DNA from: a virus
Taxonomy: Duplodnaviria; Caudoviricetes
Direction: 5' to 3' (one strand)
Length of the DNA: 64,000 bases
IMG/VR virus record: IMGVR_UViG_3300011008_000999
Shown: one piece after another, positions 32,169 to 62,488 of the stretch
How positions within the stretch are numbered: the stretch's first letter is position 1
Layout of the letters: every line of letters starts with the position of its first letter
Notes under the pieces: model-generated
The model's input: the letters and a program-made list of their open reading frames with translations, nothing else
Database searches by the model: none
What the model was told of the DNA's origin: nothing
Translations under genes and position numbers: made by a program

Positions 32169-32304
32169 TTGACACTCCCCATGCCTAAAGGCAGGGGATT
32201 CTTGTTTCAGCCACTACTGCGTTCCTAACAAGTAACCTTGTTGGCTCGTCTTACACAATGTCCACAAGCGTAAATTCCCGTATGCCCTACGGTATTTTTA
32301 TATG
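32169..32304 (-). ncRNA. omegaRNA scaffold of TnpB element 1
   Basis: Between tnpB stop and RE; similar to 59587..59733. Confidence 0.75.
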
Positions 32305-33396
32305 TTAGGCTACTGAAAGCCCTTTGTTTAAGATGTTTAGGCTTGCATTAGTGTCTCTATCGTGCTTTGTATGGCATTTAGGACACTCCCATTCTCTAAC
32401 AGAGAGGTTCTTTACAAGTGGATTTTTATATCCACAACAGCTACATGTTTGACTACTAGGATACATGGTCGGAACTTTAATTATTTCATTTCCATACCAA
32501 GTGGCTTTGTATTCAAGCATTGTAAAGAATTTAGACCATGAGCAGCTTGCTATGTGTTGCGCAAGCTTATGGTTGCGCACCATCCCCTTAATATTTAAGT
32601 CCTCTATACAGATAGTTTGGTTTTCGCTAACAAGTATAGTTGACTGTTTTTGAAGGAAATCGTTGCGCTGATTAGTTATCTTCTCATGGACTTTAGCTAC
32701 TTTAACACGCTGTTTATTGCGATTATTAGAACTTTTCTGCTTACGAGAAAGCCTGCGTTGTTCTCTGATAAGTTTACGCATAGATTTCTCTAAATACTTA
32801 GGGTTGTTGACAATATTGCCGTTGCTGTCGGAGTAAAATTCTTTAATACCGACATCAATGCCAATCACGCCGCCTGCATTTGGTCGATATTCGGGTTCAA
32901 AATCAACATTCAGCACTACAAAGTATTTACCTGTGGGAGTGTGTTCTATCGTAGCATTATTGATACGTCCCACTTTCATAGACTGTTTGACTTTGACATA
33001 TCCAAGCTTCGGGAGCTTAATATAATTCCCGACTATGCGAATGTTATCACCTTGGTTAATGGTCCTGTAGGACTGATGATTATTATGCTTACTCTTGAAC
33101 TGCGGATGTCTTGCACGTTTCTCAAAGAAATTTTTAAATCCACGGTCTAAATCTCTCAAAGATTGTTGAAGTGCAATAGAATCAACAACTTTCAAAAAAG
33201 CAAAATCATCAGACCTTTTTAATTCCGTAAGCATAGCAGATGTTTGATTGTATCCTATTTTTTGACCATTAACGTAGGCATTATTACGCATAGCAAGACC
33301 TTTGTTGTAGATGAGTCTGCAACAACCAAGTGTTTGATTTATTAAGTTTTGCTGCTCTTTATTAGGATATATCCTAAACTTAACACCTTTATTCAT
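32305..33396 (-). CDS. tnpB: RNA-guided endonuclease TnpB
   Basis: RuvC D (GIDVG), E (IEDL), D (DRDTNA); CxxC..CxxC. Confidence 0.95.
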   Translation of the reverse strand: MNKGVKFRIYPNKEQQNLINQTLGCCRLIYNKGLAMRNNAYVNGQKIGYNQTSAMLTELKRSDDFAFLKVVDSIALQQSLRDLDRGFKNFFEKRARHPQFKSKHNNHQSYRTINQGDNIRIVGNYIKLPKLGYVKVKQSMKVGRINNATIEHTPTGKYFVVLNVDFEPEYRPNAGGVIGIDVGIKEFYSDSNGNIVNNPKYLEKSMRKLIREQRRLSRKQKSSNNRNKQRVKVAKVHEKITNQRNDFLQKQSTILVSENQTICIEDLNIKGMVRNHKLAQHIASCSWSKFFTMLEYKATWYGNEIIKVPTMYPSSQTCSCCGYKNPLVKNLSVREWECPKCHTKHDRDTNASLNILNKGLSVA

Positions 33397-58230: not shown

Positions 58231-58303
58231 AGCTGATATAGAGACTTGAACTCTAAACCTACGGATTACTAAACCATTGCTCTGCCAATTGAGCTATACC
58301 AGC
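58231..58303 (-). tRNA. tRNA-Thr(AGT)
   Basis: ATGGT-TTAGTAA-TCCGT; GCTGGTA acceptor like the other Thr tRNA. Confidence 0.85.
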
Positions 58304-58377
58304 AAGTAGGATAAAAAATAAGCAGTTATCCAAGTAGATTTGGGTAACTGCTTTGAATGATATTTCACATTTTCATT

Positions 58378-58647
58378 CTACGTGCAGTTCTCCCGTGTCT
58401 TCAAAATATTATAAATACGATCTCTATCATTTGTAGATACTTCAATTGACTCAGAAATGTCAAATCCATTATCTGCAAAAATACTCATGGTTCCTTCAGT
58501 ATTAACATCAACACTAATCCAATAACTAACTGTGACATTAGACACTTCATTAGTTTTAAGCTGCTTAGCAAGATCCTTGATGCGTACAGCAAGGCTAACG
58601 TTAATATCTTCGAGTTCTTTAAGTGTTATACTCTGTATATTTGTCAT
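58378..58647 (-). CDS. Hypothetical protein
   Basis: AAAGGAG RBS. Confidence 0.6.
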   Translation of the reverse strand: MTNIQSITLKELEDINVSLAVRIKDLAKQLKTNEVSNVTVSYWISVDVNTEGTMSIFADNGFDISESIEVSTNDRDRIYNILKTRENCT

Positions 58648-58728
58648 GTTAGTTATCTCCTTTCATTAGTATTGATAAGTGCGGATAACGAGACTCGAAC
58701 TCGTATGAGGTTGCCCCCGAGGGATTTT

Positions 58729-59420
58729 CTTACCACTATAACTTTCATTACCGTCTCAAACAAAACGTTTGTGGTCTGGACTAGTTCTTCACCATATCAT
58801 TTCTGACTTAGGTGCGACGTGTATAGTCTCTACACATTTAGGTTACTAAACCATTTAGCTCGCCATTCCCATACAGCTTTAACTATCTGTAAGGCTTTGT
58901 GATTTAGCGCCGTTCTCATCTAGGAGTTTCCTACCTAGTGACTCATTTGTCTTTCCTCTTCTAAAACGATAAGTTTTAGTTAAAGCATGGCAATTTGGAC
59001 AAATTAACCTTAGATTTTCTAATCTATGATCAGTTGGATTGCCATTTATGTGATCTAATTCACAAGGTGTATATGTTGCACCTTCTGGTTTTTTATTCCA
59101 ACCACATAATTGACATTTGTCCTCAAAATATCCTTCATTTATAAGTCTAATTTTTAACTTATATGTTTGATAATGAGGATATTTACCAGCTAGTATATCA
59201 GAGGTTTCAATGTGTCTAGAAGATAACTTTTTAGTACCTTTTCCACCTTGATTTTTAATTTTGTGGAATATACCTAACGCCTTTGCTTTCGCAATATACG
59301 TTCGATATGACATACCGCATAATTTACTAGCTTGAGCCACGGTTTGACAGTTTTCAGTGATTTTTATGAACTCTTCATCAGTAATACCAGATTTGTTCAT
59401 ATTATCACCTACTTTCTTTT
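58729..59420 (-). ncRNA. Group I intron in anticodon (U^AA)
   Basis: Splice after U, terminal G; P1 GACUU|A...UGAGUC with U-G pair; P7 elements GTAGAGACTA and GAAGAACTAGTCC. Confidence 0.9.
58879..59400 (-). CDS. Intron-encoded HNH homing endonuclease
   Basis: CQLC...ELDHING..DHRLENLRLICPNCHA. Confidence 0.9.
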   Translation of the reverse strand: MNKSGITDEEFIKITENCQTVAQASKLCGMSYRTYIAKAKALGIFHKIKNQGGKGTKKLSSRHIETSDILAGKYPHYQTYKLKIRLINEGYFEDKCQLCGWNKKPEGATYTPCELDHINGNPTDHRLENLRLICPNCHALTKTYRFRRGKTNESLGRKLLDENGAKSQSLTDS

Positions 59421-59492
59421 AAGTCCCTTGTGTCTGCCAATTCCACCATATCCGCATTTGTATGGGCTAGGGTTACTAACCCATACTTATGT

Positions 59493-59586
59493 TTAAGCAG
59501 CTACAGTAACTGCTGCATAACGATCACTACAGATCACATCAAGCATTGCTTCGAGAGGTGTCTTATTCATTCCCTGAACTAAGTTC
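59493..59586 (-). pseudogene. C-terminal remnant of a DUF2828/vWA (Ro60/TROVE-like) gene
   Basis: NLVQGMNKTPLEAMLDVICSDRYAAVTVAA* followed by hairpin; family recognised from memory of the TP..ML....S.RY ending. Confidence 0.55.
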
Positions 59587-59733
59587 GTGAACTACTCGGC
59601 AACAAGTTACCGAGCTTCTTGCTTCAACCACTACTGCTAGGCTACACGTAACCGTGTTGGCTAGTCTTACACAGTGTCCACAAGCGTATAAGTTCGGGCA
59701 GTTCCTGCCCTACTATAAGAATAAGAGATGGAT

Positions 59734-60858
59734 TTAGGCTACTTGTAGTAATCTGAGTCCTTCATTTTTTATGTTGATAGCTGCATTGTAGTCTCTATCT
59801 ATAGTTAGACCACAATCACATTTATATATTCTATCAGCAAGGGTAAGCTTTCTTTGGCTTCCGCAACAGCTACATAGCTGTGAGGAAGGATACCATTTAT
59901 CTACTTTGATAAAGTATTTTCCTCTATCAAAAAGCTTGTACTCTAGCATATTTAGAAATAATCCATAGTCGTTATCTAAAGTAGCCTTTCCATTTCCAAA
60001 GCCCTTATTAGACATAGCTCTCATATCAAGGCTTTCTACACATACAACGTCATACTGATTGGCTATCTCAGTAGAGAGTTTATGTAAATTATCTAGTCTT
60101 TGGTTAGTGATGTGTCTATGGATTTTATTTACTTTCTTTAATTGTTTTAGATAGTTATTGGATTTCTTTTCATTCTTTTTAGAACCTATTTTACGAGAAA
60201 GTTTACGTTGTTCTTTAGCGAGCTTTTTATGACTTTCTCGATAGTATTTATGATTGGAACCTATATTTCCATTACTATCCATATACAAACCATCAGATTT
60301 ATAATCTAAGCCGATTGCATTATCTGATTTAGTAACTTTAGTAATAACTCTGTCAAATTCAAAGAGAATAGAAATATAAAAACTACCATCACTTTCTTGA
60401 GATACAGTAGCAGACTTGATTATCCAGTCAGCCTCTGGCTGTCTATGGATAACTGCCTTCACCTTACCTATCTTAGGTAACTTGATGTACTTATCATCTA
60501 TGATTGCCACCGTACCTTTTTGATTATTAGTAGTATAGGACTTTCTAGTATGCTTTCTTGACTTGAATTTAGGAAAGCCATTACGTTTTTTACGTTTCTT
60601 GTCAAAGAAAGCCTTATAGGAAGACTGTAAGTTGATTTGTACATTGGCGAGAGCCAAAGAATCAACTTCCTTCAAGAATGTATAGTCTTTCTTGTACTGT
60701 GCAGGCGTAGTCTGAAAACTCTCGCCTGTAGCTTTGTAATAAGCAATCTTATCTACGAGCATAAGATTCCACACCTTACGGCAACAGCCGAAGGTCTGTG
60801 CAAACTTATCAGCTTGTTCAGTTGTAGGATATACTCGATACTTGATTGCTTTATTCAT
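59734..60858 (-). CDS. tnpB: RNA-guided endonuclease TnpB
   Basis: GLDY, VESL, DRDYNAA; Zn finger. Confidence 0.95.
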   Translation of the reverse strand: MNKAIKYRVYPTTEQADKFAQTFGCCRKVWNLMLVDKIAYYKATGESFQTTPAQYKKDYTFLKEVDSLALANVQINLQSSYKAFFDKKRKKRNGFPKFKSRKHTRKSYTTNNQKGTVAIIDDKYIKLPKIGKVKAVIHRQPEADWIIKSATVSQESDGSFYISILFEFDRVITKVTKSDNAIGLDYKSDGLYMDSNGNIGSNHKYYRESHKKLAKEQRKLSRKIGSKKNEKKSNNYLKQLKKVNKIHRHITNQRLDNLHKLSTEIANQYDVVCVESLDMRAMSNKGFGNGKATLDNDYGLFLNMLEYKLFDRGKYFIKVDKWYPSSQLCSCCGSQRKLTLADRIYKCDCGLTIDRDYNAAINIKNEGLRLLQVA

Positions 60859-61268
60859 AGCTGTACATTCTTTTGCCTTTCTATATATTTTAGGATGTTT
60901 TCCTCAGAGGTGGAGCCTATGGTTTCACAGAAGTAAGAGCCATTCCAAAGTTGACCTTTCCAAAGCATAGTTCTAATCTCAGGAAACTCTTTGAGTAATG
61001 TATTCCCACTAATGCCTTTGAGATACTTTACTATTTGAGTAACTGAAATCTTTGGTGGAGCAGATACAAAACAATGAACGTGGTCGCTTTCACCAACTTT
61101 GCAATCTACCACAGTAAAGCCTTTCTCAATACCTATCTCTTTTACTAACTCATAGAGTCTTTCAGCTATCTCAGGTTTGAGAACTTTCCTTCTGTATTTG
61201 ACACACCATACGATGTGATAATTGATATTGTAGACGCAGGTGCGTCCGTGAGTGTACTTGTTATTCAT
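60855..61268 (-). CDS. tnpA: Y1 HUH transposase
   Basis: YHIVWCVKYRR, DHVH, LKG.S, YIERQ. Confidence 0.95.
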   Translation of the reverse strand: MNNKYTHGRTCVYNINYHIVWCVKYRRKVLKPEIAERLYELVKEIGIEKGFTVVDCKVGESDHVHCFVSAPPKISVTQIVKYLKGISGNTLLKEFPEIRTMLWKGQLWNGSYFCETIGSTSEENILKYIERQKNVQL

Positions 61269-61416
61269 ACATATAGTATATATCTAATGTGTATCAATGT
61301 TAATATTTATGCTATTAGCTAATCATACATATAGTATAATAATTTAGGTTGAGAAAAACGGGCTTTCATCTCGGATACAAGTAACCGAGAATTCCCGCCC
61401 GAATTCTTAAAGGTGT

Positions 61417-62136
61417 TTGCTGTTTGAGTCACATGTATTTTGAGTCGTCCACTAAAGTAGGACCTCTCTAATTAAATGATTGACAAGATCTGTTAATAGG
61501 ATTTTTCGACGATCTTTATACTCGATTTCCTCGTACGTTGTGGACGTACAAACCAGACTTTACAGTCATCATCGTTAACATTTGATAATGTTTGCTGTAG
61601 TCAATCACAAAATGCAATTGTAAAGGTACGATACCTAAATGACGAGTTTAACAAGATAATTTTTTCGCATAAATTTTCTGTTGTTAATGTTTTGCAGTAA
61701 TCGTCACAAATAGGTGAGTTACTAAATGACTGACAAGGAACGTTTAATGGGATTTTTTGGTCGTTACCTATGCTACACCGTTTCCCGACATGTTAGGTAC
61801 ATGCCAACCTAATTTTTATTTACCTAAAATAAAATTAAGAAGATTTGCAATTGTATTGCTGTTAAGTCAGTCACGACTTGTAAAAAATATGATTGTCACG
61901 GACTCTTTCTCGGATTTTCTGGTGGCATACCGCTCTTTACCGTTTCCGGATAGATCATTTGAATCGGATCTTTTGGCTGATACTATCATGTTCCATTTCC
62001 GGATAGGTCGTTAGTCAGATTTTTAGTGACCTATCAGTATACATTTTCTGGATTGTTAAACAATCAGCTTTGGCACCTTTATCGTGCACATACTGTTATC
62101 ATCTTTAATAGAATGATTTGCTGTTAAGACAATCAC
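61417..62136 (-). repeat. Array of five handle-RNA units (one truncated)
   Basis: 61889..62136, 61726..61874, 61639..61707, 61476..61608, 61417..61432; covarying terminal helices plus AC(A/T)GCAA. Confidence 0.8.
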
Positions 62137-62159
62137 AAATTTAAGTGTTTCCACTTAAG

Positions 62160-62232
62160 CTCCCTCAGTAGGACTCGAACCTACGACCCTGCGGTTAACA
62201 GCCGCATGCTCTACCAACTGAGCTATAAAGGA
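62160..62232 (-). tRNA. tRNA-Asn(GTT)
   Basis: Cloverleaf. Confidence 0.9.
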
Positions 62233-62488
62233 ATAATTTGACCCGTTGTTTTTCGGAATATAATTCCTAGTCAAGGAAAGTGGAATCATACTTTCAGTAA
62301 TAAGTTATGTATAAACCTGACACATTATACATAACTAGACTTCCGTCTACTCCACCACCTGATATTTCAATCAGGAATGTAAAATAACTTACATTTAAGA
62401 TGCGGTATAACAGAGTAAACTCTGCACGATACTTGATGCTACTAAATGCATTTATAAGCTTTGTAGTCATTCTATATCTATACCGCAA

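What the first reader, a model, noticed from the sequence alone, without database searches (positions are those of the whole stretch)
59493..61432. Remnant of the likely protein partner (DUF2828/Ro60-like), deleted at the handle motif and hit by an IS
Seen: removing the IS (59587..61406) joins ...CAGCAAACACCTTTAA|GAACTTAG..., reading ANTFKNLVQGMNKTPLEAMLDVICSDRYAAVTVAA* followed by a terminator-like hairpin. It is fused directly to the last handle unit, whose 3' strand is missing. From memory this resembles the C-terminus of DUF2828/vWA proteins, which have a TROVE/Ro60-like architecture. Inference: the gene lay just downstream of the RNA array and most of it was deleted through CAGCAAAC microhomology. 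The RNAs may now be orphaned or use another copy (elsewhere in the genome or host).
Basis: partly seen in the sequence, partly recalled or inferred. Interest (0 to 1): 0.72.

Follow-up and report, generated by a model that had tools for sequence, protein, structure and literature searches.

The report
Ro60-like gene stump split by IS
A giant rumen phage has lost all but the last 33 or so codons of its Ro60-shaped (DUF2828) protein gene to a 1.6-kb deletion and a jumping gene, yet it keeps the small RNAs that sit beside the intact gene in related phages.

Summary

- **The IS.** Window 59587-61406 (-) is a complete IS200/IS605 element with tnpA, tnpB and end hairpins. Its ends and its TTTAA target are fixed by bacterial copies and rumen contigs.
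- **The stump.** Removing the IS restores a 39-codon frame. Its last 34 residues match 33/34 the C-terminus of a 486-aa DUF2828 protein (P0016) from related giant phages.
- **The intact locus.** A syntenic 394-kb phage (L002) carries, at this exact place: RNA units A-D, a complete fifth unit, tRNA-Asp, a strong promoter and an intact 487-aa DUF2828 gene. The same hairpin and intron-split tRNA-Leu follow.
- **What was lost.** About 1,619 bp: the 3' half of unit E, tRNA-Asp, the promoter and codons 1-454.
- **No other copy.** The 332-kb genome has no other DUF2828, DUF7788 or TROVE match.
- **Fold.** The AlphaFold model of the intact relative matches Ro60 structures.

Not settled: the order of the two events, and the proposed CAGCAAAC microhomology, which could be 0-8 nt. 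The hairpin after the stop is not a canonical terminator.

This scan has already noted the DUF2828 plus ACAGCAA-RNA pairing on other genomes. Here it is seen as a natural knockout of the protein.

The parts
61433..62158 (-). Context: array of four complete helix + (A)CAGCAA RNA units (A-D) between tRNA-Asn and the stump
   Evidence: The closing helices differ between units (GTGATTGTC/GACAATCAT, GTGACTGAC/GTCAGTCAT, GTGACGA/TCGTCAT, GTGATTGAC/GTCAATCAT), as read. The region aligns to the L002 array at 88% overall; units A-C look nearly identical by eye and the cargo of unit D diverges. No Rfam family matches.
61415..61432 (-). Truncated fifth unit (E): 5' helix strand GTGACTCA, spacer AA, CAGCAAAC. 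The deletion junction lies in or just after GCAAAC (61415-61420)
   Evidence: L002 has a complete unit here, GTGATGCT-TA-CAGCAAAC...AGCATCAT, which folds with a 9-bp closing helix. The window piece has no partner strand.
61407..61414 (-). ACCTTTAA: DUF2828 codons 455, 456 and the first two bases of 457 (T-F-K). TTTAA (61407-61411) is the IS target, which is also the presumed TAM
   Evidence: It aligns to L002 ACA TTC AAG and to P0016 ...ATTFKN.... TTTAA precedes the left end in three bacterial copies.
59587..61406 (-). IS200/IS605-family insertion sequence, 1,820 bp, no target duplication
   Evidence: family assignment; ends; near-identical copies in other contexts in bovine gut runs.
61369..61390 (-). 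Left-end subterminal hairpin TCTCGG-N10-CCGAGA
   Evidence: Read; conserved in the bacterial copies.
60855..61268 (-). tnpA, 137 aa, Y1 (HUH) transposase
   Evidence: PF01797 at 2.6e-40; NF033573 at 144 bits against a cut-off of 55. A promoter-like site lies at 61303-61275.
59734..60858 (-). tnpB, 374 aa, RNA-guided endonuclease family
   Evidence: NF040570 at 304 bits against a cut-off of 100; PF07282, PF12323 and PF01385 also match. It is 87% identical to the Lachnospira multipara ATCC 19207 copy.
59587..59733 (-). Right end with its hairpin (about 59595-59614); presumed omega-RNA scaffold, ending ...GAGTAGTTCAC
   Evidence: The end is conserved in a second phage copy and in bacterial copies. 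Fold. The omega-RNA role is inferred from the family (10.1101/2023.03.14.532601).
59496..59586 (-). Right part of the stump: third base of codon 457 plus codons 458-487 of DUF2828. The first 16 nt (59571-59586) would be the TnpB guide-matching sequence
59493..59495 (-). TAA stop of the former DUF2828 gene
   Evidence: same position as in L002.
59460..59486 (-). Conserved 11-bp hairpin between the stop and the 5' half of tRNA-Leu(UAA); not a canonical terminator
   Evidence: Identical in L002. Energy -16.8 kcal/mol, z -4.3. No T run and not called by the scan.

Best explanation
This is the dead stump of the phage's single DUF2828 gene, which encodes a Ro60-shaped protein (HEAT-repeat ring plus vWA/MIDAS domain). 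In the ancestor, as in living relatives, the tRNA/small-RNA operon ran: RNA units A-E, tRNA-Asp, own promoter, a gene of about 487 codons, hairpin, intron-containing tRNA-Leu(UAA).

Two lesions remain. First, an IS200/IS605 element (tnpA plus tnpB) inserted 3' of TTTAA inside codon 457. Second, about 1.6 kb was deleted from just after the CAGCAAAC of unit E to codon 455. This removed the 3' half of unit E, tRNA-Asp, the promoter and codons 1-454.

Most likely the IS came first and killed the gene. The neighbouring deletion then followed, either by replication slippage or template switching at the short GCAA(A)C similarity, or during TnpB-provoked break repair. The deletion nearly offsets the 1.8 kb the IS added.

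Shown: the stump, the IS and its ends, the intact locus in a relative, the absence of another copy, and the Ro60-like fold of the relative's protein. Inferred: the order of events, the mechanism of deletion, that the RNAs bind this protein, and that they are now orphaned or served by a host copy.
For: - The stump matches DUF2828 C-termini. All 30 listed rows of the tblastn hits lie under one gene, named DUF2828 or RNA-binding protein in most, and in Izhevsk the match is at the extreme end of the CDS. P0002 hits only here in the genome, residues 453-487, E 1.3e-10. The stump is 33/34 identical to P0016.
- The syntenic relative L002 has the same tRNA order, the same units A-D, the same downstream hairpin and HNH intron, and an intact 487-aa ORF (PF11443 6e-39, PF25043 1.8e-36).
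- In L002 coordinates the missing segment is 9071-7453, which is 1,619 nt.
- IS family and ends. The L002 phage has no copy of this IS. Copies about 99% identical sit in other flanks in bovine gut runs.
- The genome has no PF11443, PF25043 or PF05731 match anywhere.
- Ro60-like fold: pLDDT 90.7. 1yvr scores E 1.1e-8 with TM 0.61/0.58; 9l5y (phage phiLo Ro60) and 2nvo (Rsr) also hit. The MIDAS residues D294, S296 and S298 are invariant in 47 relatives.
- Helix + CAGCAA units lie just upstream of DUF2828 in Bacillus phage Izhevsk and in 3 of 6 Lachnospiraceae loci, against about 0 in shuffles.
- The genome holds 1,751 TTTAA sites, so an IS landing within 14 nt of an unrelated junction by chance is unlikely. 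This favours linked events.
Against: - The DNA of the closest intact relative (P0016) could not be fetched, so the ancestral sequence at the junction is unknown.
- With L002's codons (GCA ACT ACA) the join CAGCAAAC|ACC has no exact microhomology.
- L002's unit E has TATAA in the same register as the window's TTTAA, so the left flank could be native RNA-unit sequence instead of gene sequence.
- The stump alone hits no Pfam model.
- RNA-protein binding is inferred from synteny only.
- The bridging contig probably comes from the same sample as the assembly, so it is not independent.
Confidence: 0.87

Rival explanations
1. Two-copy IS recombination. The IS sat in the gene at codon 457 and a second copy inserted at a TTTAA inside unit E. 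Homologous recombination between the two copies removed everything between them. In this reading the junction is the IS itself, the left flank (ACCTTTAA) is native RNA-unit sequence, and no microhomology was involved.
For: L002's unit E reads CAGCAAAC-TAT-TATAA, so a near-target sits in the same register as the window's CAGCAAAC-ACC-TTTAA. This reading explains without further assumption why the 'junction' abuts the IS. The phage carries two other TnpB-type elements.
Against: The left flank reads in frame A-N-T-F-K against A-T-T-F-K in P0016 and L002. GC and AC matching at the right codon positions outside the forced TTTAA is unlikely by chance; my rough estimate is below 1 in 1,000. The model also needs two insertions 1.6 kb apart among 1,751 TTTAA sites.
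Confidence: 0.09
2. Assembly artefact. The IS, which is common in rumen bacteria, and the deletion were created by mis-joining metagenomic reads, and the real phage has an intact gene.
For: Near-identical IS copies occur in other contexts in rumen metagenomes, which invites chimeric joins. No run other than the probable source sample covers the array.
Against: A Logan contig (a different assembler) covers 61299-61551 with no differences, across both the IS left end and the deletion junction. The IS sits precisely 3' of its TTTAA target, and removing it restores the reading frame. The record is a closed 332-kb genome with terminal repeats.
Confidence: 0.03
3. Not a remnant. The short frame is an ancestral small gene or a chance similarity, and relatives gained the long gene later.
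For: After IS removal a 39-codon frame with a GTG start exists.
Against: The frame is 33/34 identical to the end of a 486-aa protein. Unit E is cut in mid-structure. DUF2828 genes lie next to tRNA arrays and CAGCAA units in phages as distant as the Bacillus Tsamsa-like phages. The frame is currently split by the IS.
Confidence: 0.01

Closest known systems
Phage and bacterial Ro60 (Rsr) with Y RNA-like RNAs encoded next to the gene: Thermus phage phiLo phiRo60 with Yrl1/Yrl2 (PMC12135203; PDB 9KOP, 9L5Y), and YrlA in bacteria and mycobacteriophages (PMC4201824)
   Same: The intact relative's protein has the Ro60 architecture of a helical ring plus a vWA domain with MIDAS residues. Small structured RNAs closed by a terminal helix lie directly upstream of the gene, amid tRNAs.
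   Different: The Pfam scan of P0002 returned DUF2828 and DUF7788 but no TROVE match at E <= 1. The RNAs match neither Rfam YrlA nor Y_RNA. Their fixed element is CAGCAA 2-4 nt after the 5' strand, not the Ro60 bulged helix or the CGAA motif. In this window the protein gene is destroyed.
IS200/IS605 elements with TnpA and TnpB (IS605 type); TnpB as a guide-RNA homing nuclease (10.1101/2023.03.14.532601)
   Same: The element has a Y1 transposase plus TnpB and subterminal hairpins. It inserts 3' of a fixed pentanucleotide (TTTAA) without target duplication. Its right end is conserved up to a sharp boundary.
   Different: It resides in a 332-kb phage genome inside a tRNA/small-RNA operon. Transposition and TnpB cleavage were not tested. 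The adjacent 1.6-kb deletion is not a standard outcome of this family.
DUF2828 genes beside tRNA arrays of Bacillus Tsamsa-like phages (for example Izhevsk QIW89909.1; annotated 'RNA-binding protein' in RefSeq for Tsamsa)
   Same: The gene order is the same: tRNA array, about 600 nt holding three helix + CAGCAA units, then the DUF2828 gene. The C-terminal motif is the same: KTPxExMLDV...RYAxVTV.
   Different: Identity to the stump is only 50-57%. Those genes are intact and carry no IS.

Membership tests
DUF2828 / DUF7788 (PF11443 + PF25043) | Significant match of the sequence itself to the Pfam models | tested here: not met
   The 30-aa stump hits no Pfam family at E <= 10, and the genome-wide HMM searches find nothing. 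This is expected: in P0002 the best PF25043 stretch ends at residue 461 and the stump is residues 455-487.
DUF2828 / DUF7788 (PF11443 + PF25043) | Homology to the C-terminal tail of proteins that do pass the models | tested here: met
   P0002 (PF11443 6e-39, PF25043 1.8e-36) matches the stump at E 1.3e-10. The stump is 33/34 identical to P0016. All 30 listed tblastn rows lie under one gene, named DUF2828 or RNA-binding protein in most, and the match is C-terminal where checked.
DUF2828 / DUF7788 (PF11443 + PF25043) | Same genomic position as an intact family member in a syntenic relative | tested here: met
   L002 has the same tRNA order, RNA units, hairpin and tRNA-Leu intron on both sides of an intact 487-aa gene.
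Ro60 / TROVE | Match to the TROVE sequence model (PF05731) | tested here: not met
   The Pfam scan of P0002 and P0001 at E <= 1 lists no TROVE. The genome has no PF05731 match.
Ro60 / TROVE | Ring of helical repeats followed by a vWA domain with a MIDAS motif | tested here: met
   This holds for the intact relative only. The AlphaFold model has pLDDT 90.7 and pTM 0.91. Its top 12 Foldseek hits are all Ro60/TROVE, aligned over the full length. D294, S296 and S298 are invariant.
Ro60 / TROVE | Binds Y-type RNAs through their closing helix | not testable with these tools
   There is only co-location of helix + CAGCAA units with the gene.
IS200/IS605 | Y1 HUH transposase TnpA | tested here: met
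   PF01797 at 2.6e-40; NF033573 at 144 bits against a cut-off of 55.
IS200/IS605 | TnpB accessory nuclease gene | tested here: met
   NF040570 at 304 bits against a cut-off of 100. It stays under the stricter NF038281 cut-off (316 bits against 425).
IS200/IS605 | Subterminal hairpins, fixed target 5' of the left end, no target duplication | tested here: met
   Hairpins at both ends. TTTAA precedes the left end in the window and in three bacterial copies. The flanks join without duplication and restore the frame.
Y RNA / YrlA (Rfam RF00019, RF02553) | Match to the covariance models | tested here: not met
   No Y_RNA or YrlA match in 59300-62300 at E <= 10. In L001 the only YrlA match is a 19-bit one over tRNAs.

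The most novel reading that the evidence does not exclude
The IS acts as an RNA-guided gene drive among co-infecting giant phages. Its TnpB would be guided by the 16 nt after the right end (GAACTTAGTTCAGGGA, which is DUF2828 codons 457-463) with TAM TTTAA. It would cut intact DUF2828 alleles of sibling phages and copy itself in, and faulty break repair produced the abutting 1.6-kb deletion. The surviving helix + CAGCAA RNAs are then not junk. They work with a host-encoded DUF2828, which 24 of 201 sampled Lachnospiraceae genomes carry, or they act as decoys for it.
Probability: 0.12. Interest if true: 0.7.

Novelty: new member of a known kind. Interest (0 to 1): 0.45.

Why it matters
On its own this is an ordinary event: a gene killed by an insertion sequence and trimmed by a deletion. 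Its value lies in what it says about its surroundings.

- **It ties the RNAs to the protein by position.** The intact Ro60-shaped gene sits exactly here in relatives, directly behind the same helix + CAGCAA RNA array.
- **It is a natural knockout.** A complete 332-kb phage keeps at least four such RNAs in this array, and more elsewhere, with no DUF2828 or Ro60-type gene detected. One can therefore ask whether the RNAs need the protein. One of the four already has a changed core, ACTGCAA.
- **It hints at the host.** An active-looking TnpA/TnpB element is shared between a giant phage and rumen Lachnospiraceae.
- **It gives a defined TnpB guide/target pair** lying in a phage gene.

The literature search found no paper on DUF2828 in phages or on its RNAs.

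Tried and rejected
- Pfam on the 30-aa peptide gave nothing; it is too short.
- Megablast of 58300-62300, and a distant blastn of the L002 locus, against GenBank phages found no relative. Only tRNA-Asp hits appeared, plus one weak match within the gene (11% of the query, 72.8% identity) in an unannotated fecal contig.
P0016 in viral contigs returned only L002's contig. The first metagenome scan found nothing. The second found three chance matches in unrelated coding DNA. A viral-contig scan for the 5' part of unit E found nothing.
- P0002 by sequence against PDB chains gave no meaningful hit; only the fold search showed Ro60.
- My first genome-wide scan for a 7-bp helix + CAGCAA was unspecific, with about half of all CAGCAA sites passing, and was dropped. 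The stricter 8-bp version was used instead.
- Global MAFFT of the whole locus misplaced the upstream half, so that half was realigned separately.
- Runs X1, X2 and X4 cover only the IS and tRNA pieces, not the array. They say nothing about the phage's presence there. The X4 joint 59461>62166 (side 22) is a tRNA-to-tRNA look-alike.
- Lachnospira multipara (closest TnpB) has no DUF2828, so it gives no support for a host copy in that species.
Full report
**Setting.** The window is the minus strand of 143027-207026 of a 331,944-bp virus record with terminal repeats, rated complete. On the window's minus strand runs a long array of about 40 tRNA genes and a tmRNA. The finding lies inside this array, between tRNA-Asn (62159-62232) and an intron-split tRNA-Leu(UAA) whose 5' half starts at 59455.

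**The insertion sequence.**
- ORF 60855-61268 (-) is an IS200-type Y1 transposase (PF01797 2.6e-40; NF033573 144 bits).
- ORF 59734-60858 (-) is a TnpB (PF07282, PF12323, PF01385; NF040570 304 bits).
  - A diverged second copy in the same phage, and copies in Lachnospiraceae, Agathobacter and Bulleidia genomes, all end ...GAGTAGTTCAC and then diverge.
  - Three bacterial copies begin GAAT... immediately after TTTAA.
  - Contigs from bovine gut runs carry the element at about 99% identity, lose likeness to the window exactly at 59587, and go on into other sequence.
- So this is a complete 1,820-bp element. It has hairpins at both ends, a TTTAA target and no target duplication, and it is currently shared with rumen organisms.
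- The closest TnpB is in Lachnospira multipara ATCC 19207 (87% aa). This points weakly to a Lachnospiraceae host.

**The stump.**
- Removing 59587-61406 joins ...CAGCAAACACCTTTAA to GAACTTAG... and gives a 39-codon frame ending at 59493.
- The 30 residues to the right of the IS hit 70 phage records by tblastn.
  - Each hit is weak on its own (E 0.03-1).
  - All 30 listed rows lie under one gene, named DUF2828 or 'RNA-binding protein' in most and 'hypothetical protein' or unannotated in the rest.
  - In Bacillus phage Izhevsk the match is the last 27 residues of a 480-aa DUF2828 protein.

**The intact locus in a relative.** A degenerate DNA pattern for KTPLEAMLDV found one IMG/VR contig of 394,266 bp (L002). 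It is syntenic. It has the same tRNA order, the same downstream 84/89-aa ORF, the same HNH-bearing intron in tRNA-Leu and the same hairpin. Between them lies an intact 487-codon ORF (P0002) that passes PF11443 (6e-39) and PF25043 (1.8e-36).

**No other copy, and the closest relative.**
- Searching the window's whole genome with P0002 finds only the stump (residues 453-487, E 1.3e-10).
- PF11443, PF25043 and TROVE find nothing.
- Among 6,566 database relatives, P0016 (486 aa, longest contig 377,947 bp) ends ...SATTFKNLVQGMNKTPLEAMLDVICSDRYAAVTVAA.
- That matches the window in 33 of the last 34 residues. The one difference (T to N) lies next to the junction.

**What was deleted.**
- Upstream of its gene, L002 carries the same four RNA units as window 62150-61440. 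The region is 88% identical overall; units A-C look nearly identical by eye and the cargo of unit D diverges.
- Then comes a complete fifth unit (GTGATGCT-TA-CAGCAAAC...AGCATCAT, closing helix 9 bp).
- After it lie tRNA-Asp (9015-8940), a strong promoter (TTTACA-17-TG-TATAAT, 11/12) and the gene.
- The window keeps only the 5' strand and CAGCAAAC of its own fifth unit (61415-61432), followed at once by ACC TTT AA (codons 455-457).
- In L002 coordinates the missing stretch is 9071-7453, or 1,619 nt: the rest of unit E, tRNA-Asp, the promoter and codons 1-454.
- Other tRNA-Asp genes remain in the window.

**The junction and the order of events.**
L002's gene reads TCT GCA ACT ACA TTC AAG. With that sequence only GCAA is shared, and the join CAGCAAAC|ACC is nearly blunt.
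- The position after Ala varies in the family (T, S, N, G). An ancestor reading GCA AAC would therefore give 6-8 nt of microhomology. This cannot be settled without the DNA of a closer relative.
- The deletion end lies only 8-14 nt from the IS left end. The genome has 1,751 TTTAA sites, so an independent landing there is unlikely and the two events are probably linked.
- I favour this order: the IS first, killing the gene at codon 457, then an abutting deletion that nearly cancels the 1.8 kb gained. The deletion could have arisen by slippage near the left-end hairpin or during repair of a TnpB-made break.
- In IS605-type elements TnpB is guided by the sequence just beyond the right end and cuts vacant sites (10.1101/2023.03.14.532601). 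Here that sequence is GAACTTAGTTCAGGGA, inside DUF2828. This is inference; nothing was assayed.
- A rival is recombination between two IS copies, one sitting in unit E. L002 has TATAA in the same register there. The in-frame A-x-T-F-K match argues against it.
- L002's phage has no copy of the IS.

**Is the protein Ro60-like, and is it the RNAs' partner?**
- The AlphaFold model of P0002, built with 47 relatives, has pLDDT 90.7 and pTM 0.91.
- Its 12 best Foldseek matches are all Ro60/TROVE structures aligned over the whole length: 1yvr (E 1.1e-8, TM 0.61/0.58), phage phiLo Ro60 (9kop, 9l5y) and Deinococcus Rsr (2nvo). Isolated vWA domains come next.
- The MIDAS residues D294, S296 and S298 are invariant.
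- By sequence it is not a TROVE member.
- For the RNAs I have only position.
  - Three helix + CAGCAA units fill the 620-nt gap before the Izhevsk gene.
  - Units with helices of at least 8 bp lie just upstream, on the same strand, of DUF2828 in 3 of 6 Lachnospiraceae loci, against about 0 in shuffles.
- No Rfam family matches, and the literature search found nothing on DUF2828 in phages.
- Known analogues are Ro60 with Y RNA-like RNAs encoded upstream in Thermus phage phiLo (PMC12135203) and YrlA (PMC4201824). ROT/TROVE proteins are noted in a few jumbo phages (PMC7824862).
- Earlier notes of this scan report the same DUF2828 + ACAGCAA pairing on other genomes. They are leads and are not counted as evidence here.

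**Are the RNAs orphaned?**
- No second gene exists in this complete genome.
- Of 201 sampled genomes of the Lachnospira family, 24 carry DUF2828. A host copy is therefore possible but far from general, and Lachnospira multipara has none.
- In the window, units A, B and D keep helix and core unchanged relative to L002. Unit C reads ACTGCAA where L002 has ACAGCAA. That is a single change, too little to call decay.

**Assembly.** A Logan contig from run X3, a 2015 gut metagenome and probably the source sample, covers 61299-61551 without a difference. It bridges the IS left end and the deletion junction. It comes from a different assembler but probably not from independent reads.

**Small corrections.** The hairpin after the stop is strong and identical in L002. 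It lacks a U tract and is not called as a terminator. It sits 4 nt before tRNA-Leu and may be a processing element.

**Verdict.** The stump is real and its identity, the IS and the loss of the only copy are well supported. As a thing in itself it is an ordinary gene loss. It matters as positional evidence for, and a natural knockout of, the DUF2828/CAGCAA-RNA pairing.

Noticed in passing
window 32305-33396 (-), with a right-end-like 73 nt at about 32199-32272; also contig C1:11427-12681 (outside the window, L006:1495-2749): The phage carries two further TnpB-type genes. One scores 507 bits on NF038281, and no transposase was recognised beside it. The other is a 72%-identical tnpB + right end preceded by a 135-aa ORF. 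So the phage holds three TnpB elements in all.
   Followed up: partly
window 58680-59455 (-); L002 6560-7320: tRNA-Leu(UAA) is split by an intron carrying an HNH endonuclease ORF (58879-59400, PF01844). By eye, the intron and its flanks align to L002 with far fewer differences than the neighbouring sequence does. This pattern would fit co-conversion during intron homing.
   Followed up: partly
window 61691-61707 (-), unit C: The otherwise fixed core ACAGCAA reads ACTGCAA in this protein-less phage, whereas the relative with the protein has ACAGCAA. It is a single change and may or may not reflect relaxed constraint.
   Followed up: no
L001 (Bacillus phage Izhevsk) 2095-2560: Three unannotated helix + CAGCAA units (GACAC.../GTGTC..., GGCTC.../GAGCC...) fill the gap between the last tRNA and the DUF2828 gene.
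   Followed up: partly
L035 2571 and 2747 (-); L036 837 (+); L040 788 (+): Short hairpins of the form helix-NN-CAGCAAT-loop-helix lie directly upstream of chromosomal DUF2828 genes in Lachnospiraceae genomes.
   Followed up: partly
window 61444-61470 (-): A small conserved hairpin (GTCC-TACTTTAGT-GGAC) lies between unit D and unit E. It is kept in L002. Its role is unknown.
   Followed up: no
window 62159-62232 versus L002 9830-9869: The tRNA-Asn that directly precedes unit A in the window is not at that place in L002, so the array's upstream neighbour differs between the two phages.
   Followed up: no
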